From NCBI GenBank assembly GCA_030688365.1, contig JAUYIE010000005.1, positions 5,764 through 69,763 on the forward strand: a stretch of 64,000 bases of DNA. The letters run 5' to 3'. Made by a program: the position numbers and the translations under genes. The notes beneath the pieces are model-generated. The model searched no databases. It saw only the letters and a program-made list of their open reading frames with translations, and was not told the origin of the DNA. The DNA comes from a bacterium (lineage in GTDB: Bacteria; Patescibacteriota; Patescibacteriia; JACQRZ01). This document shows positions 26,831-52,374 of this stretch, piece by piece. Each line of letters begins with the position of its first letter. Within the stretch, counting starts at the first letter, position 1.

Positions 26831-27493
26831 ATGAAAATACTTGTCGTAGAAGATGAGCCAAAACTAAATAAAGGGCTTACAGAAAGCCTCCATACTCGCG
26901 GATACGCAGTGGATCAAGCATTTGATGGTGTAGAGGGCGAGCGTATGGCACTGCTTGGTACTTACGACCTTATCGTACTTGATATCATGATGCCAAAACG
27001 CGATGGGCTTGAAGTGTGCAAGAATCTACGTGCCAGTGGCAACACCACTCCAATTCTGATGCTCACTGCCAAAGATACAGTACGTGACAAAATCACAGGT
27101 CTTGACATAGGCGCTGATGATTATTTAGTCAAGCCGTTCTCTATTGATGAACTTACCGCGCGTATCCGCACTCTTCTTCGCCGTCCGCTAATCATTGCAA
27201 ATGATGTCCTTACCCTTAACGGTCTTACTCTTGACACCCGTTCACAAACCGTCAGTATAGATAAAAAAGTGATAGATCTCACCTTACGCGAATATGGGCT
27301 ACTTGAATACCTTTTGCGTAACAAAGATTCTGTATTGACGCGCGATGATTTGTTGGAACATGTCTGGGATCGCAATTTTGATTCCTTTAGTAATGTCGTA
27401 GATGTCCATCTGAAAAATCTTCGTAAAAAACTACCACCATTGTATGCAAAACGCATTAAAACTGTTTGGGGCAAAGGCTACCGCCTCGTTTAA
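26831..27493 (+). CDS. OmpR-family response regulator
   Basis: MKILVVEDEP, phospho-acceptor D in LIVLDIMMP, C-terminal winged helix (VWGKGYRL). Confidence 0.9.
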   Translation: MKILVVEDEPKLNKGLTESLHTRGYAVDQAFDGVEGERMALLGTYDLIVLDIMMPKRDGLEVCKNLRASGNTTPILMLTAKDTVRDKITGLDIGADDYLVKPFSIDELTARIRTLLRRPLIIANDVLTLNGLTLDTRSQTVSIDKKVIDLTLREYGLLEYLLRNKDSVLTRDDLLEHVWDRNFDSFSNVVDVHLKNLRKKLPPLYAKRIKTVWGKGYRLV

Positions 27494-28493
27494 TGAACAT
27501 TTCCGAAATTCATTGTGGAAATTGACTATCTTATACACGGTCGTGATTGCGACCATTCTTGTTGTGTCTAGCGGTGTCATTTACTCTGCATTTTCTCAAA
27601 AACTGGGCCGTCGCTATCAAGACTTTCGACTTATACCACAAAACCGCCCACTTGGTTTTGAAATAGTTCGTGCAACTATTCCAACACAGGCAGAAGTGCA
27701 AGAAGAGCTCATATATTCCTTGATACTGGTCAATGGTATTTTGATTATCATTGCAGGTATCGCAAGCTATTGGCTTGCACATATCACCCTACGCCCTGTC
27801 AAAGAATCATACGATGCTCAACGCCGTTTTTTTGCCGATGCATCTCATGAACTCCGTACGCCTTTGAGCATTTTAAAAATTGAATTGGAAAATGAACTAG
27901 CAAAAAATGCAGTACCCGTCACACAGCAGGAAAAAATAAGAAGCCATTTGGAAGAAGTAGATCGTATGAGCACTCTCGTATCTGATTTGCTTGTACTTTC
28001 ACGACTCCATGATCAAGACAATAAAACCAACGTACAGCGTTTTACCATTAACCTATCCGCAATGGTGCGAGATATCCACAAGCGCCTCCAACCACTTGCT
28101 AGTCAACATATCGTACACATGACATTACACGAAGCTAATAGTGATATCACCATTTCTTCTGACGAACAAGCTCTATCGCGCGCCATCCTCAATGTCATCA
28201 AAAACGCGATTATTTATAATAAACCAGACGGGATGGTCACCATCACGGTATCAACAAAAGAAAAAAAAGCACTTGTTGAGATCGTAGATACTGGTATTGG
28301 AGTTTCACCCGATGATCTTACCCACATCTTTGAACGATTTTATAGAGCTGACAAAAGCAGGTCGCGCGCCAGCGGTGGTAGTGGCCTTGGACTCTCTATC
28401 ACTCGTTCATCTCTTGAACAATTGGACGGTAGTGTTGACGTAAAAAGTACACTTGAACAAGGCACTACCGTCACCCTGACATTGCCAGTATAA
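27444..28493 (+). CDS. Sensor histidine kinase (HisKA + HATPase_c)
   Basis: Two TM helices, H-box SHELRTPLS, N/G boxes (NAIIYNKPDG, DTGIGV, GGSGLGLSI). Confidence 0.85.
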   Translation: MQNALKLFGAKATASFNEHFRNSLWKLTILYTVVIATILVVSSGVIYSAFSQKLGRRYQDFRLIPQNRPLGFEIVRATIPTQAEVQEELIYSLILVNGILIIIAGIASYWLAHITLRPVKESYDAQRRFFADASHELRTPLSILKIELENELAKNAVPVTQQEKIRSHLEEVDRMSTLVSDLLVLSRLHDQDNKTNVQRFTINLSAMVRDIHKRLQPLASQHIVHMTLHEANSDITISSDEQALSRAILNVIKNAIIYNKPDGMVTITVSTKEKKALVEIVDTGIGVSPDDLTHIFERFYRADKSRSRASGGSGLGLSITRSSLEQLDGSVDVKSTLEQGTTVTLTLPV

Positions 28494-28558: not shown

Positions 28559-29116
28559 ATGCAAAAACGCAGGTTCGCGAAGTCGGCGGCGGTCACTGCA
28601 ACGGTCATACTTGGCCTTGCCGGTAGTGGTGCAGGAGTCTTGTACGCGGCAACGGCGACAGGAGGGGCATCACCGGGCAATGCACTCATCACTGCAATCG
28701 CCCAACGCTTTAATCTCAATGAAGACGACGTAAAACAAGTTTTTGATGAACAACGTGCACAAATGCATGAACAAACACAAGAACAACGTCAAAATATCTT
28801 GCAAAACCGACTGACCAAAGCAGTCGCCAACGGCACCATCACACAAGCACAAGCTGATGCGATTAGTGTCAAAGAGCAAGAAATAAATAATCAAATGGAT
28901 GCTCTCAAGGATAAAACTCCTCAAGAACGTCAAAGCGCGCTAAAAGCGCAACACCAAGCCCTCAAACAATGGGCAACAGATAACAATATTCCACAGAAAC
29001 TCTTTCCATTTGGTGGTCCTCGTATGGGATATGGTCACCAAGGATTCAAAGGATCTTCGGGACATAACGAAGGAGAGGTACCACGCGAATTGCGTCCTCG
29101 ACCAAGGGTACAGTAA
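28559..29116 (+). CDS. Secreted Gln-rich hypothetical protein (possible periplasmic stress protein downstream of the two-component system)
   Basis: Signal peptide, Q/A-rich helical repeats, Gly/His-rich tail. Confidence 0.35.
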   Translation: MQKRRFAKSAAVTATVILGLAGSGAGVLYAATATGGASPGNALITAIAQRFNLNEDDVKQVFDEQRAQMHEQTQEQRQNILQNRLTKAVANGTITQAQADAISVKEQEINNQMDALKDKTPQERQSALKAQHQALKQWATDNNIPQKLFPFGGPRMGYGHQGFKGSSGHNEGEVPRELRPRPRVQ

Positions 29117-29157: not shown

Positions 29158-29193
29158 TCCGAGGGCAGAAATGCCCTTGGTGTTGTTGTTTTG
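29158..29193 (+). terminator. Intrinsic terminator after 28559..29116
   Basis: CCGAGGGCA-GAAA-TGCCCTTGG 9 bp stem with GAAA loop followed by TGTTGTTGTTTTG. Confidence 0.6.
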
Positions 29194-29560
29194 AATAAAA
29201 AAAATAGGAGTAGTAAGACTCCATTGATTCAAAATTAATAATTTTTTTAGCTGGAAGGATCTTTTTGATGCTTCACTGGCTTTTTTGGGGGCGAAATGAG
29301 GTATTGGAAAAAATCATCCATTTTATCTGGAAATATATTTCCAGCATTACTTCCATCCAATATCTCCACAATACTTTTTTTTCTTTCTCTTTCTTCTGTC
29401 ATTTTTTACTTTACCTTTCGATCGTTACCTTGCTTACTCAAGGTTTCGCTAATATAATATAAAAATAGTATATGTAGTCCGGTAACCGATGTCAAGAATA
29501 TACAATACACGTATTAAAAAAGCATTCTCATATATGAGAACACCTTTTCGATTGGTGCAA

Positions 29561-29977
29561 TTAATATTCCTGATAATCTTTTGTTGCAAAACGCTTGTTT
29601 ACGCGTTGTGCAACGGCAGACAGAACATCCTTGTCACCTTGAGAGAGTTTGTTATATCTCTCTCCCCATTTTTCTTTTACAGCATCTTCAACTCTATATT
29701 GCCGATATCCTGGTCCATGTCGGATTAGGTACCCATATTCACACAGTTCGTCTATATGATGCCCAAGCTGTGAGTTATACAAATCAGAATCATATTGCCA
29801 CTGATGAATAAATGTGGGTATGTTTGTTATCGGATTTCTCTTCAAATCGACAAAGATTATCTGCCATATTTTGTCATGTGGCATCAAATCCACATTATTT
29901 ACACTACACTGCCCCATATGGTTATCGCGTAGTAGCAACACCATATCAAAAAAATCCTGTAACATTGATATTCCCAT
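29561..29977 (-). CDS. Hypothetical protein (possible mobile-element cargo)
   Basis: Start set at ATG 29977 (MGISMLQ) preceded by strong RBS AAAGGAGGT; no family assignment. Confidence 0.4.
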   Translation of the reverse strand: MGISMLQDFFDMVLLLRDNHMGQCSVNNVDLMPHDKIWQIIFVDLKRNPITNIPTFIHQWQYDSDLYNSQLGHHIDELCEYGYLIRHGPGYRQYRVEDAVKEKWGERYNKLSQGDKDVLSAVAQRVNKRFATKDYQEY

Positions 29978-30196
29978 ATCAACCTCCTTTTTATTCCCCA
30001 TTGAATAAAATGAACAATATCGACAACCCGAATATAGCACAATAGGTTATTTTTGCAAGCTAGGACGGTAGTGGACTTAAATTTTTGGCACCAAGTCACA
30101 AAACCAAAATCCCTTTGTAACAACGTTTAGAGGTAGTCTGCAATCACTGCCTGATTTTACCTCAAGTGGTTTATATACATGTTCACCAACTAAAAA

Positions 30197-30411
30197 ATGG
30201 ATTTTGTTTTTGAATTCAGGGAAAAAATGGGGTTGGGTTCAGGCGGGCTCCAAAACCCTCAAGCCCCCAAAGGGGGCGAAAGAGGAGACATATACACAAA
30301 CCTGTCTCTCCTGAACGAAATCCGAACTTTTTTTCAAAAAAATCCAGACGCGGAATTTTAAACTGGTGACATGGCGGAATTCCCCCCACACCCCCCTTCC
30401 GCCATGTTTTT
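30197..30411 (+). repeat. Structured ~215 bp repeat, copy A (direct); ends in terminator-like hairpin plus T5
   Basis: Near-identical to reverse complement of 32466..32680 and to 34161..34264; hairpins GCCCCC-AAA-GGGGGC, GGAGACA..TGTCTCC, CATGGCGGAA..TTCCGCCATG+TTTTT. Confidence 0.8.
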
Positions 30412-30451
30412 GTGTAGGACATTTTTTTGGCTCGCAAGAGGGTAATCAAGT

Positions 30452-31282
30452 CTATCTCTCTAATTTTTTATTATTCTCTTTCTCAAGTTTTTTCTTTTCT
30501 TTTTTCAATTCTTTGATATGCCGTTCGGGAGGTAAATTTTCAGGTAAAATGCCACCAATATCCTTGATCGTCTGTCGTACTTTTCCGCCAACCATATTGT
30601 GAGTATTGATGGCATCCCTCTCCGAATCAACCTCATCTTTTTTAAGCTTTGAATCGGTTTGGGTAATACGAAAAAGATTTGCCGCCAATTCGGTCGAACC
30701 CGATCTGTCTAGTAGTTCTCCCTTCTTAATCCCCTTTCTTATTTCAACATCACCAAGAGGCATACCATACAGACCACTATACCCTGCATCATTGAATACC
30801 CCAAAGTGGGTCACGCCTGCCTGTCGAGCTGTTTTTGCCAGCTTTTTGTTCTGATTACTGACCTCGTCACGAATAAATAATCGTTTTTCGTTTAGACTCA
30901 TCTCCTCAAATAATTCTTGCTTTCTTGTCTGTAGAGCAAAGTATGTCTGCGCAAGTGCAATTTCCGTTTTTGACGGATCGCCATTTTGAGCTATCAAATA
31001 ACACGCATAGCGATCAAGCTTGTAATCATCCACTTTTCTCATGGTATTTGAACCGATCGAGACCATTTTGCTGATATCAGCAAAATGGTTATCCACAGCC
31101 TGTCCGCTCTGAATACAAGCCCGTGCCGCTTTTGCGATAACTTCTGCAAAATTTCTCCATTGAGCATAATCAAGCAAGCTCATCAATTCGCGAGCTGTCC
31201 AATACTCAATCCCATTCTCGTCAATTTTTTTAATGCTCTCAAAATCCTTGTGTGGACTTGAGGGCAGTAGCTCATGTGGCAT
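30452..31282 (-). CDS. dinD: DNA damage-inducible protein D (DinD)-like protein
   Basis: WTARELMSLLDYAQWRNF, RYACYLIAQNGDPSKTEIALAQTYFALQTRKQEL, GSTELAANLFRITQT closely parallel E. coli DinD (recalled from memory); start at ATG 31282 or upstream 31369. Confidence 0.65.
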   Translation of the reverse strand: MPHELLPSSPHKDFESIKKIDENGIEYWTARELMSLLDYAQWRNFAEVIAKAARACIQSGQAVDNHFADISKMVSIGSNTMRKVDDYKLDRYACYLIAQNGDPSKTEIALAQTYFALQTRKQELFEEMSLNEKRLFIRDEVSNQNKKLAKTARQAGVTHFGVFNDAGYSGLYGMPLGDVEIRKGIKKGELLDRSGSTELAANLFRITQTDSKLKKDEVDSERDAINTHNMVGGKVRQTIKDIGGILPENLPPERHIKELKKEKKKLEKENNKKLER

Positions 31283-31392
31283 ATTTAGTATTTGACTATG
31301 AACTATTATTACATCCGATGGTACCATGTTTAGATAACAAAGGATGTTCCCGTACTGGCAAACAATCAATATTGCGTTCCCATTTGAGTAAT

Positions 31393-32280
31393 CTACTTTT
31401 CAACACTACCGAGTCTATATCCTATTGTTCGTCCCTTCTTACCTTCAGAAAAAAGTACTGTGGGGCCTCCAGCAAAGAACTCAAGTGGCGCAAGTTTTGA
31501 AATCGCTTTGAACAAATCTAAGCTAGTGGAATAAACCAATTTCTCAATTTCAGGATTATACCCATCATAATATACTGCCACCTTTTTGGGACCTTCCAGA
31601 TTTTCACTATCAGGATATTCTTCATTAACTTTATATTTCTCATACCTATCATCCAGTTTTTTAAATACCATACTACGCCTAGCGTAAGAAAAGGAAATTA
31701 TATTCTTTTCTTTATGTAAAGCAATATAGATAGGCAAAAGCATTTGATCATTCTCAATTATCAATGTTGTCTGTCTATCCCCATCACACATCTCCTTAAT
31801 AATGTCATCAGAATTAATGAGATTGTCATTGGGAATTAATTTCAATTTTTCGATTGAGGGTATTTCTATATCTCCTAATTTCTGGTTTATATCCCGCATG
31901 GCTATTCTAATATCTTTATAGGCAACGAGACCAGTTTTTTCTCCACAGTGTTCTTTGAAAACCTCAATTATTTTAGAAGCTTCTATGTCTTTCACGTTTA
32001 TTGCGACATCGAAATTACTAAATGATAGAAACTTCTCCAATTGACTTTCGTGAGACTCATTCTCACGACCCCATAATGTAGCATAAATTTCTGCCATTTT
32101 ATCGGTATCCAAGTCGTCACCATTTAAATATAAATATCTTCCATTGTCTTCAATCACATAATCTCTAACCTTTTCAAGTCTATCTACATACTCCTGCGAA
32201 ACCTCGCCTTCAATTTTCAAACCGTGCTTGTCTGTATCTAATGCATTTACATTATTAGGTTGTTCAAATTTTGGATCCAT
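31393..32280 (-). CDS. Hypothetical protein co-transcribed with dinD-like gene
   Basis: 295 aa ORF, 24 nt upstream of dinD-like; no recognisable motif. Confidence 0.4.
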   Translation of the reverse strand: MDPKFEQPNNVNALDTDKHGLKIEGEVSQEYVDRLEKVRDYVIEDNGRYLYLNGDDLDTDKMAEIYATLWGRENESHESQLEKFLSFSNFDVAINVKDIEASKIIEVFKEHCGEKTGLVAYKDIRIAMRDINQKLGDIEIPSIEKLKLIPNDNLINSDDIIKEMCDGDRQTTLIIENDQMLLPIYIALHKEKNIISFSYARRSMVFKKLDDRYEKYKVNEEYPDSENLEGPKKVAVYYDGYNPEIEKLVYSTSLDLFKAISKLAPLEFFAGGPTVLFSEGKKGRTIGYRLGSVEK

Positions 32281-32465
32281 AAAATTTAATATTAATAATG
32301 TTCAGATATTACTATAAAACCTAAACGACTCATGGCCATCATAAAATAATCTTTACTCACACTATGACATAAACTTGTGTTTAATACAACAGTCCTAATT
32401 TGGATTAGCGCAGTCATTTCTTTCTTGCAAACTCTCCTTAAAAAGCATATCGTTAGTAATATAAA

Positions 32466-32700
32466 ACCATGGCGGAAGGGGGGCGTGGGGGGAATTCCGC
32501 CATGTCACCCATTTTAGAATTCCGCGTCTGGATTTTCTTGAAAAAAAGTTCGGATTTCGTTCAGGAGAGACAGGTGTGTGTATATGTCTCCTCTTTCGCC
32601 CCCTTTGGGGGCTTGAGGGTTTTGGAGCCCGCCTGAACCCAACCCCATTTTTTCCCTGAATTCAAAAACAAAATCCCATGGTTTGTTGAAATCCACTTTC
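32466..32700 (-). repeat. Structured repeat, copy B (inverted relative to A)
   Basis: Reverse complement ~97% identical to copy A over ~215 bp including the terminal hairpin; lies ~190 nt upstream (same orientation) of 31393..32280. Confidence 0.8.
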
Positions 32701-32758
32701 CACCTATGGCGGAAACATCCAAAGCGACATACAACATAATTCATAGCCTCCAAGCGAT

Positions 32759-34324
32759 ATGAATACGTTCTTTCTCTACGCTCGCAAGTCAACAGATGAG
32801 CCAGATCGTCAGATATTGAGTATTGAAGCCCAGATCACCGAGCTTCGCGAATTTGCCCAACGAGAACATCTTGATATTGTGGATACATTTATCGAATCCC
32901 AAACAGCAAAAGAACCGGGGCGTCCCATATTCAACAAAATGCTTGATCTCGTAGAGAAAGGTGGTGCAAATGGAATTTTGGCGTGGCATCCCGATAGACT
33001 CGCTCGCAACAGCGTTGATGGGGGGCGCGTAATTTATCTCACCGACACGAGAAATCTCACTGACCTCAAATTCCCTACCTTTTGATTTGATGCCACGCCA
33101 CAGGGCAAATTCATGCTCAATATCGCTTTTGGACAGAGTAAGTACTATGTGGATAATCTCTCGGAGAATGTGAAACGAGGATTACGGCAAAAAGTACGGC
33201 GTGGTGAACAAGTTGGGCGAGCACCGATGGGATATCTCAATGATCTTGTCGCCAAGAAAATGATACCCGACCCCCTACGCTTTCACCTTATTCACAAAAT
33301 GTTTGAACTGTATGTGACTGGTAATTATTCTTTGAAATCCCTCCGAGAGATTATCTTTGAGAAAGGACTGATGAGTGGAACAGACAAAAAGCTCTCTATT
33401 TCGATGATACAAAAAATACTCACCAATCCGATGTATTATGGTGCCTTTCTTTTTAACGGAGAGCTTTTTGCTGGCACTCATGAGCCATGCGTGTCAAAAA
33501 AACTGTTTGATGGAGTGCAAAGTATTCTGACAAGCAAAACAAACCCCAAGAAGCGAGGCGAGAAGCAGTATCCCCTACGAGGATTGTTTGTATGCGGTGA
33601 ATGTGGGTGCAGTATCACGTCAGAAACGCATAAAGGACATGACTACTATCGATGCACCAAGAAAAGGGATGCAAAATGCTCACAGAAATATATTCGAGAA
33701 GAGCTTCTCGCCCAGCAACTATCAACAATAATTCAAAACGTTTCTTTGCCAAAAGATTGGACGGACAATATACTTGAGCAACTACAAACGGAGAAATCGG
33801 ATACCGCCCAATCTGATGCCCTATTCGCTCAAACAATTAAGGATGAGGTAAAAGTATATGAAAACAAGCTTGATACCTTGCTGGACGCACACCTTGAGCA
33901 ACTCATCACGAGAGAAGAATATACCACCAAGAAAAACAAAGTATTGTCTCAAAAGATGGACTTAGAGCAAAAACTAAAGGATTTTGAGCGAAAGGGCAAC
34001 GCATGGCTCGAACGTACTCGTGCGTTCATAAATGCTTGTATCCAAGCGGAAAATGTCGCTTTGGATGAAAATATTTTTGCAAAAAAAGATTTTCTGAAAA
34101 AACACGGCTCGAACCACCTCCTCACTGACAAAACGGCTTGGGTGGATTTTCTCGCACCATGGGATTTTGTTTTTGAATTCAGGGAAAAAATGGGGTTGGG
34201 TTCAGTTGGGATTCAAAACCTTCACGCCCCCAAAGGGGGCGAAAGAGGGGGCATATACACACACCTGCGGGACATGGACTCGAACCATGATACCATCCTC
34301 CAGAGGGATGTGTCCTACCATTAG
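32759..34324 (+). pseudogene. Large serine recombinase interrupted by an in-frame TGA at 33083-33085; C-terminal ~60 codons run through repeat C and tRNA-Gln antisense and are probably not native
   Basis: Resolvase catalytic domain YARKSTDE...SIEAQ...ESQTAKEPGRP; same frame continues after TGA: FDATPQGKFMLNIAFGQSKYYVDNLSENVKRGLRQK, recombinase domain, Cys zinc ribbon CGECGC...YYRC, coiled coil; functional part ends near 34140. Confidence 0.75.
34141..34264 (+). repeat. Structured repeat, copy C (partial, direct), abutting the 3' end of tRNA-Gln
   Basis: Shares ~110 bp core with copies A and B but lacks the terminal hairpin; fused directly to tRNA-Gln. Confidence 0.75.
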
Positions 34325-34335
34325 ACGATCCCGCA
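34265..34335 (-). tRNA. tRNA-Gln (anticodon CTG), U1-A72
   Basis: Minus strand TGCGGGA-TC-GTCT-AATGGTA-GGAC-A-CATCC-CTCTGGA-GGATG-GTAT-CATGG-TTCGAGT-CCATG-TCCCGCA-G. Confidence 0.85.
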
Positions 34336-34358
34336 GGTCTATGTACATGTTATGACTT

Positions 34359-35441
34359 CTACTCTCGTATACATCCTTTCACAATCGCGACTTCAATAGG
34401 CAGTTGTGGCAAAGAAAACCACCGCGCATCCTTTTGTGCCGCCATCCAATGACTGACAAGCGCGAGGATATCTCTCATGCTAAGCAATGTCGCGAGTTCT
34501 GTGAGACTTTTTTCCGTCGTTTCATCCGTATCCACAAGATTGGTCACATTATTTTTATATAACATGATATTGCGCAAGTACTCTATCATATCCCCCACAA
34601 ACACATCAAGATCAACACCATTGTCAATCAACTCCTGTACGATAGCCAATGCTTGTTCATTGCGCTTATGACTTATCGCATCAGCAAGTCGACGCACAGC
34701 GACGTGATCTGTGCGTGGCAACAGCGCAGAGGCAAAATCGTACGTGATCGTATCCCCCAGTGAAAATATCTGTCCCAGCAAACTTTCTGCATCCCGCTGG
34801 CAACCTTGCGAAAGTCGCACAATCTCATTGATCACCTCTTTTTCAACACTCTTTTTTTCTTTTTTTGCAATAAGCATCAAGCGGGCAAACATCTGCTTGG
34901 CAGGAATCTTTTTAAAATCAAACCGTTCGCATCGGGAAATAATAGTAGGCGGTACCTTATGCAACTCTGTCGTAGCAAGGATAAAAACAACATGAGACGG
35001 TGGTTCTTCAATAAGTTTGAGTAGGGCATTAAAGGCAGAGATGGAAAGCATGTGCACTTCATCAATGATAAACACCTTATTCGTAAGTTGCGTGTGAGCT
35101 ACTTTTGCCGTTGCAATGATGTTATCTCGAACATTATCAACGCCAGTGTTGGATGCGGCATCAATCTCAATAATATCTAAACTTCGATGCTCCAAAATAG
35201 AAAGACATGGTTCACACTCATTGCACGGCTCTGGGACGCCTGTTTTACGTTTGATGCAGTTGATAGCGCGCGCAAACACTCTCGCAGTCGTGGTCTTTCC
35301 CACTGCGCGGGGCCCAGCAAACATGTACGCATGTGCAATACTTCCTCTACTGATTTCGTTTTCCAATGTCATCTTGATGGGCTCTTGCCCTATGATATCG
35401 GCAAACAACTGCGGACGATATTTTCTATAGAGAGCGCTCAT
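34359..35441 (-). CDS. dnaX: DNA polymerase III subunit gamma/tau (short form)
   Basis: FAGPRAVGKTTTARVFA Walker A, zinc module CNECEPC, DEVHML, SRC; 360 aa. Confidence 0.85.
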   Translation of the reverse strand: MSALYRKYRPQLFADIIGQEPIKMTLENEISRGSIAHAYMFAGPRAVGKTTTARVFARAINCIKRKTGVPEPCNECEPCLSILEHRSLDIIEIDAASNTGVDNVRDNIIATAKVAHTQLTNKVFIIDEVHMLSISAFNALLKLIEEPPSHVVFILATTELHKVPPTIISRCERFDFKKIPAKQMFARLMLIAKKEKKSVEKEVINEIVRLSQGCQRDAESLLGQIFSLGDTITYDFASALLPRTDHVAVRRLADAISHKRNEQALAIVQELIDNGVDLDVFVGDMIEYLRNIMLYKNNVTNLVDTDETTEKSLTELATLLSMRDILALVSHWMAAQKDARWFSLPQLPIEVAIVKGCIRE

Positions 35442-36408: not shown

Positions 36409-38979
36409 CTACTCCTCTTCTCCGCTCTGATCGTCCTCATCTTCATCTTCGTCGTCTGGAGTCTCATGTTTGGCGCGCCGTAAGATTTCACGCTCCACCA
36501 ATTCACGATCTCTCCCATATTTGAGTTGAGATAGCTGACCGATCGCATTTGCGATTTCGTCGTCACCGGCAGTTGGCGCAAACGTACGCATATTAAACGG
36601 GCGCGCAGCCGTTCCATTAATCAGTAAACGCACATACGCGTGTGTACGCTCTATATTTATTACATCAAACTCATTAAACACAGGTGCCATTTGTTTTGCA
36701 ATCAATTCGGCATCATCCACACCCACGCGAAAGTTGACAATCGTTCCTACGTTTCCAAATACTGCATCACGAACTTTGGTATCGCCAGTCTTTGGTGTAA
36801 GTTGTGCAATATATTGATGCCCGATAGTCAAACACAGACGGTATTTACGCGCCTCTGACAAAATAATCGCAATGCTGTCAGTGATAAAATTTTGAAACTC
36901 GTCAATATACAAGAAAAAATCTTGACGTTGCTCCGGATCCGCGATATCACCACGCGACAATGCGGCCATGGTTATTTTACCTACCATAATCAATCCTAAA
37001 AGATACGCGTTAAGATCGCCCAACTGCCCTTTGCTCAATTTCACTAACAAAATCTTTTTTTGATCCATGACCTCGCGCACATTAAATGCGCTTGTCTGTT
37101 GTCCAATGATCGGACGCATGATGTCATTGGATACAAATTGATTCAATTTTGAAGTAATATAGGGCACCATATTGGCAAGAGCCGCTTCACCGCCTGCTTT
37201 TTGCGCTTCCTTTACCCAAAAATCACTCACGACGGAATTTTTACATTTTGACAACTTATATGATCTAAACTCTTCATCAGCCAACACTTTTGAAACTTCC
37301 ATAAGTGTAGACCCTGACTCGGGATCCTCCATGATTAAAAGTAACGCATTACGCAAATATTGTTCAAACATCGGCCCGCCAGTGGCTCGCAAATCATACA
37401 GTTTATCCAAAATCATCACAAACTCATTGATAACGAACGTTTTTTGTTCGGGATATTTCGGATCAAACTCCAAAAGATTCAGCCCCTTAGGACGCTGGTA
37501 ATCAGCAGGATCAAACAAAATCACATCATCAGCTCGCTCCGGTGGTACCAGAGAAAGAATATGATCAACCGCTTCACCATGAGGATCAATAAAGCAACAA
37601 CCTTCTCCATTTTTGATATCCTGAATAATCATGTTTTCCATCAATGTTGTTTTTCCCGAGCCAGTCATACCGATGACATACGTGTGTCTACGACGATCAT
37701 CGCGAAGCATGTGTACTGGCGTTGCCGTACCTCTATATACATTTTCTCCCAACAATACCCCTTCCTGTGGCATATTGACGGGAGGTGGAGCACTGCGTGA
37801 TTTGAGCCAATCAATATTGGGTGTCTCGGTTGTACTTAATGGCAAATGAAAAATACTCGCCAATTCCTCGGCATTTAAAATAAAACAATGACGCGCGTCA
37901 AAATGGCGATAAATTGAATGTTCCACCATTGCTGATTTTGGTATCCTCTTATTTTTAACCAATGCGATATTTGATTCCGGGCCAGTATATTGCGCAAATG
38001 AATTGACTACATTGTATACTTGCATATCTGCCAATTCTTGTGTTTGTGCAGATCCGATAATACGTATATTCACTTGAAAGCCCGCCTTTGATCCTTTTTC
38101 CTCAACTACTTTGACTAATTCTTGTTCTAGAGGAGACATACGATATTCAGGAGAGGGATGTGCCGTGTTTTTACCTGTTGATCTTAATATGTCTACCGTG
38201 GTACCCCCTGCAGTATTTAAAGCACCCCATGCAATATCGCCTATTGAACCGACATGTGCCGCCTGCATCGCCTCTTTAACACTTTTTCCTTTCTGCATTT
38301 CGCGAGCAAATGCTTGTCCTTTTGTGCGCCATCCTCGTGGAGCAGTACGGATAGTCATTTGCAATATGATACCTTGTCCTTGTCCCGCCTTACTCAATGC
38401 GTTGGTCAATGCATTGAGTGGGTCAGAATCCATTTTGCGATACGTCCGTAATGGAAAAACCCAATGCCTGTTCAGCTGCAATGTAGCCGCTGCGACACTG
38501 CCATGCGGTAAAAAAATATTATAATCCGGCGTTTCTTCAATCTGCGCCGAAGGATATTGGGCGAGCAACTGTTGTTCAAAAAAACTTTGCAAATAATCGG
38601 GAACAATAGCAAAAAATTTAATAAGTCCGTCAATGGCGACAATTTCAAATGTAATTTCATCTTCCCGACCCAAAAAAAATGCTTTAAATATATCGCGCGA
38701 TCGCATTCCACCAAGACCTAAATACAGAGATTCAGCAACGGCTACCACTTCTTGATATTCTCCCTTTCCTCCTTTATCTTCTTCTTCTCCCTTTGACCCC
38801 TCCTTAGAAACGCGCAATTGAAAGACTTTTTTATGCAATGCATTGTGCGCAATATGCTGACGAACAAGAATCGCGCGGATTATCATCACAACCAAAACTA
38901 TTACAAGACATATCAGGATTGTCCACCAGAAAGTGGCAAAGAGGATATTGGTGGCAATAAGGTTGCTGATGACGTCCAT
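36409..38979 (-). CDS. Membrane-anchored VirD4/TraD-like AAA ATPase (type IV coupling-protein-like, DUF87/TrwB-type)
   Basis: N-terminal TM helices; Walker A GMTGSGKTT; Walker B LYIDEFQNF; acidic C-terminal tail. Confidence 0.5.
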   Translation of the reverse strand: MDVISNLIATNILFATFWWTILICLVIVLVVMIIRAILVRQHIAHNALHKKVFQLRVSKEGSKGEEEDKGGKGEYQEVVAVAESLYLGLGGMRSRDIFKAFFLGREDEITFEIVAIDGLIKFFAIVPDYLQSFFEQQLLAQYPSAQIEETPDYNIFLPHGSVAAATLQLNRHWVFPLRTYRKMDSDPLNALTNALSKAGQGQGIILQMTIRTAPRGWRTKGQAFAREMQKGKSVKEAMQAAHVGSIGDIAWGALNTAGGTTVDILRSTGKNTAHPSPEYRMSPLEQELVKVVEEKGSKAGFQVNIRIIGSAQTQELADMQVYNVVNSFAQYTGPESNIALVKNKRIPKSAMVEHSIYRHFDARHCFILNAEELASIFHLPLSTTETPNIDWLKSRSAPPPVNMPQEGVLLGENVYRGTATPVHMLRDDRRRHTYVIGMTGSGKTTLMENMIIQDIKNGEGCCFIDPHGEAVDHILSLVPPERADDVILFDPADYQRPKGLNLLEFDPKYPEQKTFVINEFVMILDKLYDLRATGGPMFEQYLRNALLLIMEDPESGSTLMEVSKVLADEEFRSYKLSKCKNSVVSDFWVKEAQKAGGEAALANMVPYITSKLNQFVSNDIMRPIIGQQTSAFNVREVMDQKKILLVKLSKGQLGDLNAYLLGLIMVGKITMAALSRGDIADPEQRQDFFLYIDEFQNFITDSIAIILSEARKYRLCLTIGHQYIAQLTPKTGDTKVRDAVFGNVGTIVNFRVGVDDAELIAKQMAPVFNEFDVINIERTHAYVRLLINGTAARPFNMRTFAPTAGDDEIANAIGQLSQLKYGRDRELVEREILRRAKHETPDDEDEDEDDQSGEEE

Positions 38980-50464: not shown

Positions 50465-50494
50465 TTGACAGGTGAACACTCGTTCACTTATACT
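50465..50494 (+). promoter_or_regulatory. lexA promoter with embedded LexA operator (Cheo-box type GAAC-N4-GTTC)
   Basis: TTGACA(50465-50470) - GGTGAACACTCGTTCAC - TATACT; perfect palindrome GTGAACactcGTTCAC at 50473-50488 inside the spacer; ATG 50504 only ~10 nt after -10. Confidence 0.55.
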
Positions 50495-50503
50495 GATACT
50501 ACT

Positions 50504-51067
50504 ATGAATAAACATTTCAAAAAAATCGCTAACTTCTACAAGAGACATCGTCGTATGCCCAGCTATAGCGAAATCATGAAAAGCACAGGCATCAAATCAA
50601 AAAACGCGGTGTTCAAGGTCATAGAAAAGATGGTCACCGCTGGTCTTGTACAAAAAGATACCACAGGTAGGATTATCCCCCTTCCCGCACTTTTTTCTAT
50701 CCGTGTGTTGGGAACCGTTACCGCGGGATGGCCGTCCCCTGCCGAGGAAGAGTTGAGCGACACCATGAATATGGATGAATACCTTATTGACAACCGCGAT
50801 GCGACCTACTTACTCAAAGTCAATGGAGATTCCATGATAGACGCAGGCATCATGCAAGGAGATATGGTGCTCGTAGAGCGAGGCGTCGCTCCTCATCATG
50901 GCGATATCGTGATTGCTGAAATAGATCACGAGTGGACCATGAAATATTATCAAAAGAAAAACGGCGCGGTCTGGCTGGTGCCTGCAAACAAAAAATATAC
51001 ACCAATAAAAGCGCAAGAAGAGCTCAATATTGCCGCGATCGTCAAAGCAGTCGTACGAAAATACTAA
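50504..51067 (+). CDS. lexA: SOS repressor LexA
   Basis: N-terminal wHTH; S24 peptidase domain with cleavage-site region VAAGWPSP, catalytic S in GDSMIDAGI and K in KYYQK; start at ATG 50504. Confidence 0.85.
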   Translation: MNKHFKKIANFYKRHRRMPSYSEIMKSTGIKSKNAVFKVIEKMVTAGLVQKDTTGRIIPLPALFSIRVLGTVTAGWPSPAEEELSDTMNMDEYLIDNRDATYLLKVNGDSMIDAGIMQGDMVLVERGVAPHHGDIVIAEIDHEWTMKYYQKKNGAVWLVPANKKYTPIKAQEELNIAAIVKAVVRKY

Positions 51068-51078
51068 TCTATCCTCCC

Positions 51079-52374
51079 ATGGCATCATTTTCTCGCGCTA
51101 TTATTCATATTGACGGCGATGCATTTTTTGCCTCCTGCGAACAATCCCGTAATCCCGCGCTTGCCGGCAAACCAGTCATCACCGGCAAAGAACGTGGCAT
51201 CGCATCTTCCATGAGCTATGAAGCCAAAGCAAAAGGCGTCACTCGTGCCATGCGTCTTTTTGAAATCAAACAACTCTGTCCTGATGCGGTCATCCTTCCT
51301 TCCGACTATGAAACCTACAGCATCCTTTCAAAACGGTTCTTTGATATTGTGCGCAGGTATACCGCCGATGTGGAAGAATACAGCATTGACGAATGTTTTG
51401 CCGACTTGACAGGCCTTGATACCGTACGCGGATGCTCATATGAAACTATCGTACAGGATATCCAACGCGTACTTTTTGATGAGCTAGGATTTACGTTTTC
51501 CATTGGCGTGGGCCCAAACAAACTCATTGCAAAGATTGGCTCAAAATGGAAAAAACCGTTTGGCATCACCGTCATTTCCAAAGATATTATTGACCACCAT
51601 CTCGCGTCTATACCCGTCGGAAAGATTTGGGGTATCGGACCACAGACCACGTCCTTGCTTGCCACACGAGGCATATTCACCGCACTTGAGTTTAAACAAA
51701 AATCAAAAGATTGGATCACTTACCACCTTTCCAAACCGTTTTATGAATTATGGCTTGAGATGCATGGACTTTCTATCCTCCCCCTCAATATTAAAGAAAA
51801 AGAACGCTATGACTCCATTCAAAAAGTAAAAACATTTACTCCCCCATCATCTGATAAAAAATTTATATATGCGCAACTTTCAAAAAATATTGAAAGCGCG
51901 TGCATCAAAGTACGAAAATACAATCTTGCTACTAAGGAAGTGTATTTTTTCCTCCGCACACAAGAGTTTCACGATGAATGGCAAAAGATAGTCCTCCCGC
52001 GCTACACTTCGTTTCCTCATGAGATCATCAAAGCATGTGAGGTGCCATTTAATCGTATATTTGACTGTCGCGCTCAATATCGTTCTACTGGTATCACTAT
52101 GACAAAGCTCCTACAAAATCCGTATGCCCAACGTGATATGTTTGGGGAATATGTACAACAAGAAAAACTCGCACGCCTCTATGAAGGCGTGGATGCTATG
52201 AGAAAAAAATACGGTAAATATACAATATTGCTCGGTTCAAGTCTGATGGCAAAAAAATTTTCGCGACATCTGGGCGCGCGCGGTGACGCACCGGCACGAG
52301 CACATACACTTTTTAAAGGTGAGACCCAGCGCAAACGACTCAACATACCTATGTTTATGGGTAAAGTGAAGTGA
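51079..52374 (+). CDS. dinB: DNA polymerase IV (Y-family)
   Basis: IIHIDGDAFFASCEQ, SIDECFAD, Y-family palm/fingers; start set at ATG 51079 (MASFSRAII). Confidence 0.85.
   Translation: MASFSRAIIHIDGDAFFASCEQSRNPALAGKPVITGKERGIASSMSYEAKAKGVTRAMRLFEIKQLCPDAVILPSDYETYSILSKRFFDIVRRYTADVEEYSIDECFADLTGLDTVRGCSYETIVQDIQRVLFDELGFTFSIGVGPNKLIAKIGSKWKKPFGITVISKDIIDHHLASIPVGKIWGIGPQTTSLLATRGIFTALEFKQKSKDWITYHLSKPFYELWLEMHGLSILPLNIKEKERYDSIQKVKTFTPPSSDKKFIYAQLSKNIESACIKVRKYNLATKEVYFFLRTQEFHDEWQKIVLPRYTSFPHEIIKACEVPFNRIFDCRAQYRSTGITMTKLLQNPYAQRDMFGEYVQQEKLARLYEGVDAMRKKYGKYTILLGSSLMAKKFSRHLGARGDAPARAHTLFKGETQRKRLNIPMFMGKVK

What the first reader, a model, noticed from the sequence alone, without database searches (positions are those of the whole stretch)
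29230..34335. Decaying integrative element at tRNA-Gln carrying a DinD-like gene and a serine recombinase
A large serine recombinase (32759-34140) reads toward the 3' end of tRNA-Gln(CTG). Between it and the chromosomal two-component locus lie a DinD-like gene, two hypothetical genes and three copies of a structured repeat. I found no direct repeat of the tRNA 3' end to define attL/attR, and the recombinase has an in-frame stop, consistent with a fixed, decaying element. Cargo is minimal: DinD-like plus a 295 aa unknown partner in an operon and a 139 aa unknown with a strong RBS. The host encodes lexA-dinB, so a DinD-like gene on mobile DNA hints at SOS-linked behaviour. The 295 aa and 139 aa proteins have no recognisable family.
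Basis: partly seen in the sequence, partly recalled or inferred. Interest (0 to 1): 0.75.

Follow-up and report, generated by a model that had tools for sequence, protein, structure and literature searches.

The report
Decayed twin-site recombinase element at tRNA
A small mobile DNA element that inserted next to a glutamine tRNA gene of an ultra-small (Patescibacteria) bacterium now sits there with a broken recombinase gene; its "structured repeats" are the element's attachment sites, and they point to a large family of such elements, for which I found no published description, that mostly carry restriction-modification and other defence genes.

Summary
The sequence features are real. There is a 521-codon large serine recombinase (LSR) gene (32759-34324) with an in-frame TGA at codon 109, reading into tRNA-Gln(CTG). 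There is also a DinD-family gene, two genes without homologues, and three copies of a repeat.

The repeats are attachment sites, not a structured RNA. Copy C is attR: the element arm P, then the core CTG, fused to the tRNA 3' end. Copy B is a complete second attP, inverted, just upstream of the LSR gene. Copy A is another complete attP, at the place where a related genome has a true attL half-site.

In 83 related loci, 65 LSR genes are bracketed by inverted repeats (median 123 nt, 99.2% identical). 49 loci abut a tRNA-Gln, tRNA-Ser or tRNA-Trp 3' end. In 35 of 35 loci the tRNA-like half-site motif sits 5 bp further out in attP than in the tRNA, which is the published LSR signature. The cargo slot is bracketed by a second pair of inverted arms and mostly holds restriction-modification genes.

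The window copy is dead: it has a nonsense codon, its arms are only 89.7% identical, and it has no attL. No LexA box precedes the cargo, so the SOS idea is unsupported. The window itself holds an ordinary relic. The family architecture appears undescribed.

The parts
29230..30186 (-). AT-rich stretch to the left of repeat copy A. It holds a 51-aa ORF (29247-29402) and a 138/158-aa ORFan (29561-30040; AAGGAGG ribosome-binding site before the ATG at 29977). Whether it belongs to the element is uncertain; it may be a relic of an older insertion.
   Evidence: GC is 36-37% here against 42-46% in the backbone. There is no family hit and no homologue. No synteny with relatives was found. An independent Logan contig, L166, joins this stretch to the start of copy A. 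No att half-site was found here.
30187..30411 (+). Repeat copy A: a complete attP-type site. The P arm (about 30199-30301) is truncated by about 20 nt at its 5' end. The core CTG is at 30302-30304. The P' arm (30305-30411) ends in a 12-bp hairpin followed by a T run.
   Evidence: Copy A occupies the position where relative L082 has a true attL (chromosomal arm, core, then P'). Its P arm differs from that of copy B at one position in alignment A1.
30452..31369 (-). DinD-family gene (305 aa, with a Bro-N domain). This is cargo.
   Evidence: NCBIfam NF008573 scores 354 bits against a cutoff of 242. PADLOC PDC-S13 hits at 4e-108. PHROG 8036 also hits, as does Pfam Bro-N.
31393..32280 (-). 295-aa ORFan lying upstream of the DinD gene in the same operon. 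This is cargo.
   Evidence: It has no family. It matches only itself among 5.8 billion clusters and among 1.84 billion exhaustively scanned representatives. The AlphaFold2 model has pLDDT 40. There is no PDB relative. GC is 32-36%.
32463..32696 (-). Repeat copy B: a complete second attP in inverted orientation, immediately upstream of the LSR gene. P' is 32463-32570, the core is 32571-32573 and P is 32574-32696.
   Evidence: It is conserved in position and orientation in L082 and in 65 of 83 family loci.
32759..34324 (+). Large serine recombinase pseudogene of 521 codons, with a TGA at codon 109 (33083-33085). The last roughly 40 codons lie in the P arm, and the last 18 codons are the antisense of tRNA-Gln.
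   Evidence: The Pfam domains are. Homologue P0001 is 88% identical, 521 aa long, and has Trp at codon 109. TGA is a genuine stop in this host.
34142..34267 (+). Repeat copy C: attR. The P arm is 34142-34264 and the core CTG is 34265-34267, fused to the 3' end of tRNA-Gln.
   Evidence: Similarity to copies A and B stops exactly at the core. The same junction occurs in L082.
34264..34336 (-). tRNA-Gln(CTG), which is the attB target. It is intact; its last bases are supplied by the element core.
   Evidence: It is 100% identical to the tRNA in L082. The dnaX-tRNA-Gln synteny is widespread in Patescibacteria.

Best explanation
The region is an immobilised member of a large family of small integrative elements of Patescibacteria, each driven by one large serine recombinase (LSR).

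**How the family works**
- The attP site lies inside the 3' end of the LSR ORF.
- The LSR recombines attP with the 3' end of a tRNA gene. For tRNA-Gln the core is CTG, the last bases of the acceptor stem. This leaves the LSR gene reading into the antisense of an intact tRNA.
- Every element also keeps a second complete attP, inverted, just upstream of the LSR gene.
- As a result, the LSR gene is bracketed by inverted P arms and the cargo is bracketed by inverted P' arms.
- The cargo slot holds 1.6-5.8 kb, mostly type II restriction-modification systems and other defence genes.

**In the window**
- Copy C is attR.
- Copy B is the internal inverted attP.
- Copy A is a further complete attP where attL should be.
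- The slot between A and B carries a DinD-family gene (an untested defence candidate) plus an ORFan.
- The copy can no longer move: the LSR has a TGG-to-TGA nonsense mutation, its flanking arms have diverged, and there is no attL.

**Shown versus inferred**
- Shown: the anatomy, the att junction logic, the family-wide architecture, the sporadic distribution and the pseudogene state.
- Inferred: that the LSR catalysed the integration, that the cargo acts in defence, and how copy A arose. Copy A could come from integration into an older attR, or from loss of a second cassette.
For: **Recombinase.** The LSR domains are present. The nonsense codon replaces a conserved Trp in a host that uses TGA as a stop.

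**Related genome L082**.
- It has the same backbone, dnaK to dnaX to tRNA-Gln.
- It has an intact LSR and the same inverted internal copy.
- It has a half copy (core plus P' only) 7.3 kb away, joined to unrelated DNA. That half copy is attL.
- Its cargo is different.

**Junctions.** Three-way junction alignments in 16 of the 18 loci aligned, besides the window, give attL, attP and attR sharing only a short core. The core is CTG in the Gln-targeting clade and TGGCGG in the Ser-targeting clade.

**LSR signature.** In 35 of 35 loci the T-arm-like motif ends at +23 in the P' half-site and at +18 in the tRNA half-site. This is the 5-bp attP/attB shift of the zinc-ribbon-domain motif described for LI integrase (PMC3783163).

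**Family statistics**.
- 65 of 83 loci have inverted repeats of at least 60 nt flanking the LSR gene.
- The median repeat is 123 nt long and 99.2% identical.
- 49 loci have a tRNA just downstream on the opposite strand: 26 Gln, 22 Ser and 1 Trp.

**Cargo.** The cargo is bracketed by inverted P' arms in about 27 loci. A census of 99 cargo ORFs found 15 DNA methyltransferases, several named restriction endonucleases, 12 HTH controller-type proteins and CBASS parts. The DinD-like protein matches PDC-S13.

**Mobility.**
- The LSR is 85.5% nt identical between the window and L082, against 68-74% for backbone genes.
- The same element (99.5% identical over 2.8 kb) sits at tRNA-Ser(GCT) in L154 and tRNA-Ser(TGA) in L155.
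- Only 2 of 80 dnaX loci from species representatives carry a family LSR.

**Decay.** The window arms are 89.7% identical, which is near the bottom of the family range.
Against: - No attL half-site exists in the window. Copy A is a full attP, an arrangement seen otherwise only in L089. The history of the left end is therefore unresolved, and the status of 29230-30186 is unknown.
- No family member has been tested experimentally, and no reads were available to show excision or inversion.
- The role of the internal inverted attP is unknown. Published serine integrases do not recombine attP with attR or attL (PMC3783163 abstract).
- The defence role of the cargo rests on context and on an untested PADLOC candidate. 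The 295-aa partner has no homologue at all.
- The 80 metagenome loci are the best of at least 570 hits, so they are biased toward close relatives.
Confidence: 0.85

Rival explanations
1. The element is an SOS-responsive mobile element whose DinD-like cargo is under LexA control and links the element's behaviour to DNA damage.
For: The protein is a bona fide DinD-family member. The host does encode lexA (from about 50504) and dinB (50932-52374), with a LexA box in the promoter.
Against: The only exact GAAC-N4-GTTC in the window is the lexA promoter box. The best site upstream of the cargo operon has 2 mismatches in the conserved half-sites. The same slot in 26 related elements carries restriction-modification and other defence genes, not SOS genes. 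The name 'DinD' reflects regulation in E. coli, not a conserved regulon.
Confidence: 0.05
2. The inverted pair A/B makes the DinD operon a currently active invertible (phase-variable) cassette. It would be flipped by host RecA or by an LSR supplied in trans. The B/C pair would likewise flip the recombinase gene.
For: A and B are 92-95% identical inverted repeats of about 225 nt flanking the operon. Family arms are typically 97-100% identical, as expected for repeats that recombine often. At the orthologous dnaX-tRNA-Gln site, the recombinase cassette occurs in the opposite orientation in L113. Three further loci also have the upstream arm fused to a tRNA.
Against: The resident LSR is a pseudogene. 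The B/C arms have diverged to 89.7%. No reads were available to show two isomers. Nothing outside the cassette, such as a promoter, is known whose position relative to the operon would change on inversion. The promoter scan was not informative. Known serine integrases do not pair attP with attL or attR.
Confidence: 0.1
3. The mobile unit is only the recombinase cassette. It would be an IS-like element with roughly 126-nt terminal inverted repeats. The cargo and the P' arms would be unrelated neighbouring DNA.
For: Many homologues sit on 1.8-2.1 kb contigs bounded by the inverted repeats. The start of copy B to the end of copy C spans 1805 bp. In L091 the cassette sits between two tRNA-Gln genes with no cargo next to it.
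Against: The short contigs are explained by assembly breaks at inverted repeats. About 19 contigs start or stop at an arm, and Logan contigs from the window's own sample break inside copies A and B and just short of copy C, within the tRNA. The sequence outside the upstream arm (P') recurs, inverted, on the far side of the cargo, joined there to chromosomal DNA at the same core. So cargo plus cassette insert as one unit. L154 and L155 share cargo, attP and LSR at two different tRNAs.
Confidence: 0.07
4. The 'structured repeat' is a gene for a structured non-coding RNA, such as a guide or regulatory RNA, that happens to be triplicated.
For: The plus strand of copy A folds into a multi-branch structure ending in a terminator-like hairpin, with a z-score of -2.2.
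Against: There is no Rfam match at either the gathering or the E-value threshold. The z-score is modest, and it is -0.85 on the other strand. The copies break exactly at a recombination core. Copy C lacks the 3' half. The P part is simply the last roughly 40 codons of the LSR ORF. The hairpin in A and B that pairs GGAGACA with TGTCTCC is absent from L082.
Confidence: 0.03
5. The region is a remnant of a prophage that used the LSR as its integrase.
For: One IMG/VR contig (L165) has a 49%-identical LSR next to endolysin- and amidase-like genes. The DinD family matches a PHROG.
Against: No structural, replication or lysis gene lies in 29230-34335. Related elements are only 3.5-7.5 kb long and carry restriction-modification cargo. 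The repeat has no match in viral contigs.
Confidence: 0.02

Closest known systems
Large serine integrases of phages and integrative elements (phiC31, Bxb1, LI/A118, SPbeta SprA, SCCmec Ccr, XisF)
   Same: The domain architecture is the same: Resolvase, Recombinase and Zn-ribbon. The attP and attB sites share only a short core. The half-site motif is shifted 5 bp between attP and attB. The weak best NCBIfam hits are XisF and CcrB.
   Different: The target is the 3' end of a tRNA gene. The attP lies inside the integrase ORF, so the last roughly 18 residues differ between the integrated and free forms. A second complete attP in inverted orientation is a conserved part of the element. No conserved directionality-factor gene was seen. 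The elements are tiny (3.5-7.5 kb). All NCBIfam equivalog scores are far below cutoff, so this is not a member of any named subfamily.
tRNA-integrating genomic islands mapped by Islander/TIGER
   Same: The elements insert at the 3' end of a tRNA gene, the tRNA is kept intact, the integrase gene is adjacent to the tRNA, and occurrence among relatives is sporadic.
   Different: According to the Islander paper's abstract (PMC4383910, seen), those islands are usually driven by tyrosine integrases and are marked by a displaced tRNA fragment as a direct repeat. Here the enzyme is a serine integrase and only 3-8 nt are shared.
Hin-type invertible segments and the yeast 2-micron plasmid (FLP with 599-bp inverted repeats); comparison drawn from my own knowledge
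   Same: The recombinase gene lies inside a segment bracketed by inverted repeats that contain its recombination site. Two unique segments are separated by near-identical inverted repeats. Both orientations are found in nature.
   Different: Those systems use small serine invertases or a tyrosine recombinase and do not integrate at tRNAs. Inversion by this LSR has not been shown. Canonical LSRs refuse attP x attR pairing.
Mobile restriction-modification units (Furuta et al. 2010, PMC2853133, listed)
   Same: Restriction-modification gene complexes are linked to recombinase genes and flanked by long inverted repeats.
   Different: I did not read that paper beyond its abstract. The tRNA target, LSR and twin-attP architecture described here is not mentioned in that abstract.
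Tycheposons of Prochlorococcus (bioRxiv 10.1101/2020.12.28.424599)
   Same: Both are small cargo-carrying, site-specific elements at tRNA genes in a streamlined genome. A minority of tycheposons carry a large serine recombinase.
   Different: 910 of 937 tycheposons use tyrosine recombinases, and many carry replication genes. No twin inverted attP is described for them.

Membership tests
Large serine recombinase (serine integrase) | N-terminal resolvase catalytic domain with a nucleophilic Ser, followed by the Recombinase domain and a zinc-ribbon domain | tested here: met
   PF00239 hits at 9e-22, PF07508 at 8e-13 and PF13408 at 1e-11. The motif YARKST with Ser11 is conserved in all homologues.
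Large serine recombinase (serine integrase) | Intact reading frame | tested here: not met
   There is a TGA at codon 109 where homologues have Trp. TGA is a stop in this host. The gene belongs to the family by descent but is a pseudogene.
Large serine recombinase (serine integrase) | attP and attB share only a short core, and the zinc-ribbon-domain half-site motif lies 5 bp closer to the centre in attB than in attP | tested here: met
   The core is CTG. The motif ends at +23 in P' and at +18 in the tRNA half-site, in the window and in 35 of 35 loci. The rule comes from PMC3783163.
Large serine recombinase (serine integrase) | Catalyses attP x attB integration; excision requires a directionality factor | not testable with these tools
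   No biochemical test was possible. No conserved small gene was found: the divergent ORF through the upstream arm has a ribosome-binding site in only 4 of 64 loci.
Named LSR subfamilies (XisF, CcrA/B/C) | Score above the NCBIfam equivalog cutoff | tested here: not met
   XisF scores 102 bits against a cutoff of 375. CcrB scores 94 bits against a cutoff of 900.
tRNA-integrating genomic island (Islander type) | Tyrosine integrase, and a displaced tRNA 3' fragment as a direct repeat at the far end | tested here: not met
   The integrase is a serine recombinase. No tRNA fragment repeat exists in the window.
DinD (NCBIfam NF008573) | Full-length match above the curated cutoff | tested here: met
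   The score is 354 bits against a cutoff of 242, covering residues 38-301.
DinD as an SOS gene | LexA operator in the promoter | tested here: not met
   The host box GAACACTCGTTC is found only at 50474-50485. Nothing better than a 2-mismatch site lies upstream of the operon.
PADLOC phage-defence candidate PDC-S13 | HMM match, plus demonstrated anti-phage activity | tested here: inconclusive
   The HMM match is 4e-108. PDC systems are untested candidates predicted by embedding within known defence systems.
Invertible DNA segment (Hin/Gin type) | Small serine invertase, short inverted crossover sites, and two isomers in one population | tested here: not met
   The enzyme is an LSR and the arms are 85-148 nt long. 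Both orientations were seen only between genomes, not within one population.

The most novel reading that the evidence does not exclude
The twin inverted attP is a working part of the element, not a relic.

In the free circular form, the LSR segment and the cargo segment would be separated by two near-identical inverted attP repeats, laid out like the yeast 2-micron plasmid. The LSR would flip the segments or integrate through either site. This would explain three observations: the arms stay about 99% identical across a family whose LSRs have diverged to 50% identity; both orientations occur at one tRNA site; and related genomes keep the recombinase module while their cargo differs.

In addition, attP lies inside the ORF. 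The integrated and free forms therefore make LSR isoforms with different 18-residue C-termini: a tail encoded by the tRNA antisense versus a tail encoded by P'. These isoforms could set the direction of recombination without a separate directionality factor.
Probability: 0.15. Interest if true: 0.8.

Novelty: new variant of a known kind. Interest (0 to 1): 0.6.

Why it matters
Patescibacteria have tiny genomes and few recognised mobile elements, and how they acquire defence systems is poorly understood. This relic led to a family with at least dozens of verified members (65 of 83 loci examined) among thousands of similar LSR proteins in public data. It is a minimal vehicle for restriction-modification and other defence genes, and it targets conserved tRNA 3' ends.

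Two features are unusual for serine integrases. First, the target is a tRNA gene. Second, a conserved second attP in inverted orientation is kept almost identical to the first. Together with an ORF that crosses attP, these features raise testable questions about how direction is controlled without a directionality factor, and about cassette exchange.

Compact integrases whose natural target is a universally conserved tRNA sequence could also be useful tools for organisms that are hard to manipulate genetically. For the window itself the conclusion is modest: it holds a dead copy carrying a DinD-like gene and an ORFan.

Tried and rejected
1. **Known RNA family.** Rfam found nothing at the gathering or E-value thresholds. 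Fold z-scores were weak.
2. **Repeat in viral contigs.** Two exact-pattern scans returned no matches.
3. **TGA recoding.** Rejected. TGA terminates 7 of 55 long host ORFs. The other disrupted family members carry TAA or TAG at unrelated positions.
4. **LexA control of the cargo.** No operator was found. A 1-mismatch match, GAACTTTTTTTC, lies inside both P' arms, but it is part of the conserved half-site motif.
5. **Small divergent ORF as a regulator.** I considered whether the ORF running through the upstream arm, which duplicates the LSR C-terminus, is a conserved regulator or directionality factor. The window and L082 have a GGAGG-ATG, but only 4 of 64 loci have a start codon with a ribosome-binding site, and 11 have no start codon. 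Rejected as a family feature.
6. **Function of the 295-aa and 138-aa proteins.** No homologues were found. The single-sequence AlphaFold2 model has pLDDT 40, so no fold search was run. PDB matches were only insignificant calmodulin hits.
7. **Left boundary by synteny.** The left flanks of the window and L082 share nothing, even by tblastx. No degenerate P' half-site was found at 29190-29260 by eye.
8. **Both orientation states in one sample.** Too few near-identical pairs were available. The pseudogene's ORFs are not on record in the contig index.
9. **Literature.** Five full-text searches found no description of this family or of twin attP sites. The library lacks most subscription journals.

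Full report
**1. What is in the window**

Between a two-component system (26831-28493) with a 185-aa gene (28559-29116) on the left and dnaX (34359-35441) on the right, the features are as follows.

| Coordinates | Feature |
|---|---|
| 29230-30186 | AT-rich stretch with a 51-aa ORF and a 138/158-aa ORF |
| 30187-30411 (+) | Repeat copy A |
| 30452-31369 (-) | DinD-family gene |
| 31393-32280 (-) | 295-aa ORF |
| 32463-32696 (-) | Repeat copy B, inverted |
| 32759 onward (+) | Large serine recombinase (LSR) gene |
| 34142-34267 (+) | Repeat copy C |
| 34264-34336 (-) | tRNA-Gln(CTG) |

- A 34-mer from the repeat occurs exactly three times in 64 kb, against 0 expected.
- The LSR has Resolvase, Recombinase and Zn_ribbon_recom domains.
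- Its frame is interrupted by a TGA at 33083-33085.
- The frame then continues through copy C and the antisense of the tRNA to a TAG at 34322-34324, giving 521 codons.
- The DinD-like protein scores 354 bits against NCBIfam NF008573, whose cutoff is 242. It also matches PADLOC candidate PDC-S13.
- The host is a Patescibacteria MAG. Its DnaX is at most about 50% identical to species representatives, except for one partial match of 59%. The locus tags are Q8P11_01220 and Q8P11_01230.

**2. The repeats are attachment sites**

Aligning the three copies shows the following.

- A and B share about 225 nt. This consists of a left part (P), the bases CTG, and a right part (P') that ends in a terminator-like hairpin.
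- C shares only P plus CTG. It then continues directly as the antisense of the tRNA.

Full-length LSR homologues explain this.

- Many end in ...LDSNQDTILQRDVSYH, which is a translated tRNA T-arm and acceptor stem.
- P0002 ends in ...LLDKIRTFFKENPTNDDF. This matches the ORF across A and B (...LLNEIRTFFQ[K/E]NPDAEF).

So P is the last roughly 40 codons of the LSR gene. The crossover lies inside the ORF, and P-CTG-P' is an attP.

**3. A related genome supplies the missing attL**

P0001 is 88% identical to the window LSR and has Trp at codon 109. It lies in GCA_023246095.1 (locus L082) on the same backbone, dnaK-dnaJ-...-DUF8128-dnaX-tRNA-Gln. L082 has:

- the same attR;
- the same complete inverted copy upstream of the LSR gene;
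- a half copy 5.2 kb further left, consisting of CTG plus P' only, joined to unrelated DNA.

The three junctions in L082 read as follows.

| Site | Junction |
|---|---|
| attL | ...CACAACTG / TCTCTCTTGAAC |
| internal attP | ...CACACCTG / TCTCTCTTGAAC |
| attR | ...CACACCTG / CGGGACATGGAC |

The cargo between attL and the internal copy is unrelated to the window's cargo. It includes a Schlafen/AlbA_2 ATPase and a trypsin-like protein. The LSR genes are 85.5% nt identical, against 68-74% for dnaX, dnaJ and the other backbone genes. The recombinase module has therefore moved horizontally since the two hosts diverged.

**4. The family**

A metagenome scan with the LSR returned 80 loci, at 51-80% amino-acid identity. 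Scripts on these loci plus the window, L082 and L083 gave the following.

- *Inverted repeats around the LSR gene.* 65 of 83 loci have inverted repeats of at least 60 nt flanking the gene. The median is 123 nt long and 99.2% identical, and 52 of 65 are at least 97% identical.
- *tRNA junction.* In 49 loci the downstream arm runs a few bases, mostly 4-9 nt, into the 3' end of a tRNA on the opposite strand: 26 Gln, 22 Ser and 1 Trp. LSRs at 56% identity or above target tRNA-Gln, and those at 51-55% mostly target tRNA-Ser.
- *Cargo arms.* In about 27 loci the sequence just outside the upstream arm recurs, inverted, 1.6-5.8 kb further away. These copies are 110-276 nt long and mostly 97-100% identical. 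They bracket the cargo.
- *Junction pattern.* Three-way junction alignments were made in 18 loci. In 16 of them the attL, attP and attR junctions share only CTG (Gln clade) or TGGCGG (Ser clade). TGGCGG is the antisense of the tRNA 3' CCGCCA. The window differs in having a full attP at the attL position, and L130 did not align cleanly.
- *The 5-bp shift.* In 35 of 35 loci the motif (A/T)TC(C)GAAC ends at +23 in P' and at +18 in the tRNA half-site. This 5-bp inward shift in attB is what Rutherford et al. described for the zinc-ribbon-domain motif of LI integrase (PMC3783163).

I take these results together as strong sequence evidence for canonical LSR attP x attB chemistry.

The generic map of an integrated element is:

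[chromosome-core-P'] cargo [P'-core-P, inverted] LSR gene [P-core-tRNA]

**5. Mobility and orientation**

- L154 and L155 are 99.5% identical over 2.8 kb (cargo, attP, LSR). They abut tRNA-Ser(GCT) and tRNA-Ser(TGA) respectively.
- Of 80 dnaX loci from GTDB species representatives, 32 hold a tRNA-Gln but only two carry a family LSR.
- In L091, L111, L113 and L125 the upstream arm, not the downstream arm, is fused to a tRNA-Gln 3' end.
- L113 is collinear with the window backbone (dnaK to dnaX to tRNA-Gln(CTG), 66-73% nt), yet its LSR cassette is inverted relative to the window and L082. Both orientations therefore occur at the orthologous site.
- Three of these four 'flipped' LSR genes carry nonsense codons (TAA or TAG). 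Among the 48 loci with only a downstream tRNA, only the window's gene does. My hand-calculated Fisher exact test gives about 7e-4. I have no explanation for this.

**6. Cargo**

- A census of 99 ORFs from 27 cargo slots found:
  - 15 DNA methyltransferases;
  - restriction endonucleases of the HinP1I, BsobI, ScaI, MvaI/BcnI and TdeIII families;
  - 12 HTH_3 proteins matching restriction-modification controller proteins, often a roughly 71-aa ORF next to the internal attP;
  - CBASS parts (SMODS, SLATT_4, AGS_C);
  - AAA_13 and ResIII proteins.
- The window's slot holds the DinD-like gene. PDC-S13 is an untested 'guilt-by-embedding' candidate.
- The slot also holds a 295-aa protein with no detectable homologue in two very large searches. 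Its model is unusable.
- The DinD-like protein also matches the N-terminal part of a PADLOC type I specificity-subunit profile at 1e-74. That is a further association with restriction-modification systems.

**7. State of the window copy**

- TGA is a normal stop codon in this genome, so the LSR is a pseudogene.
- Its flanking arms are 89.7% identical, which is among the lowest values in the family.
- There is no attL. P' occurs only in copies A and B.
- Copy A is a full attP with its P arm truncated by about 20 nt. In alignment A1 its P arm differs from that of copy B at one position. Copy C differs from both at about 9 positions and resembles the L082 copies.
- Only L089 has a comparable arrangement. 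It has two inverted LSR genes around one cargo, and it may be a circular form or an assembly ambiguity.
- Plausible origins of copy A are integration into the attR of an older element followed by deletion, or loss of a second cassette. The data do not decide between them.
- Independent Logan contigs from the same sample (SRR13727534) confirm the junctions. They break inside copies A and B and just short of copy C, within the tRNA.

**8. The SOS idea**

- lexA (from about 50504) and dinB (50932-52374) are present.
- GAACACTCGTTC lies between the TTGACA and TATACT promoter elements at 50474-50485. It is the only exact GAAC-N4-GTTC in the window.
- A single such match is about what chance gives: shuffles average 0.8. 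Its placement in the lexA promoter is what identifies it as the operator.
- The region upstream of the cargo operon has nothing better than a 2-mismatch site.
- The SOS link is therefore unsupported.

**9. Comparison with what is known, and novelty**

The enzyme and its att logic are those of serine integrases. The following are not features of the characterised systems I know of:

- the tRNA target;
- an ORF that spans attP;
- the conserved second attP in inverted orientation, with concerted arms;
- the very small size;
- the restriction-modification cargo.

Five full-text searches found no description of this family. The library lacks most subscription journals, so prior description cannot be excluded. 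I classify this as a new variant of a known kind. The window instance itself is an ordinary decayed copy.

**10. Caveats**

- All functional statements are inferences from sequence.
- The metagenome loci are biased toward close relatives of the query.
- The orientation of segments between long inverted repeats can be mis-assembled.
- The motif-shift count used anchored pattern searches, although the sequences are printed.
- The role of the internal attP is unknown.

Noticed in passing
L091 9712-11537: An LSR gene with a TAA nonsense codon is flanked by tRNA-Gln(CTG) upstream and tRNA-Gln(TTG) downstream, in inverted orientation, each fused to an arm. This is the product expected if the internal attP recombined with a second tRNA-Gln gene, giving a chromosomal inversion.
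   Followed up: partly
L111, L113, L091 (LSR genes): Three of the four loci in which the upstream arm is fused to the tRNA ('flipped' state) have nonsense codons in the LSR gene. Only 1 of the 48 standard loci does. This is unexplained.
   Followed up: partly
L154 1-2791 and L155 1475-4265: The same element, 99.5% identical, is integrated at two different tRNA-Ser isoacceptor genes (GCT and TGA). L155 also has a second tRNA-Ser(TGA) 15 nt from the far P' arm.
   Followed up: partly
L089 1-8610: Two identical LSR cassettes in inverted orientation flank one cargo, with full attP sites on both sides and no tRNA. This could be a free circular form, a composite element, or an assembly ambiguity at the inverted repeats.
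   Followed up: no
window 32514-32737 (-) and L082 9755-9985 (-): A small ORF diverges from the LSR start, preceded by GGAGG-ATG. It reads through the inverted arm and so duplicates the last roughly 55 residues of the free-form LSR. It is not conserved as a gene across the family: only 4 of 64 loci have a ribosome-binding site.
   Followed up: yes
window 50474-50485: A LexA box, GAACACTCGTTC, sits between the -35 (TTGACA) and -10 (TATACT) elements of a lexA-dinB operon. The lexA gene here is short and starts at about 50504.
   Followed up: partly
window 30324-30335 and 32540-32551: A one-mismatch LexA-box look-alike, GAACTTTTTTTC, lies inside both P' arms. It overlaps the conserved TCCGAAC half-site motif, so it is probably coincidental.
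   Followed up: no
L098 9321-9536, L106 9323-9538, L127 9322-9537, L141 4572-4787 and others: A roughly 70-aa HTH_3 ORF, matching restriction-modification controller proteins, recurs directly next to the internal attP in many elements. The window has no such gene.
   Followed up: partly
L165 1-11374 (IMGVR_UViG_3300025323_000028): This is the only IMG/VR hit. It is a 49%-identical LSR at a contig end, next to endolysin- and amidase-like genes and with no tRNA. It may be a phage that uses a distant family member as its integrase.
   Followed up: partly
window 36409-38979 and L082 13693-16209: A conserved 838-856-aa DUF8128 / TraG-TrwB-like ATPase sits two genes from dnaX in the chromosomal backbone of the window, L082 and L113.
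   Followed up: no
window 28559-29116: A 185-aa protein with a hydrophobic N-terminus and a Gln/Ala-rich body gives sub-threshold hits to Terminase_2 and to a phage HTH family. These were judged to be chance matches.
   Followed up: no
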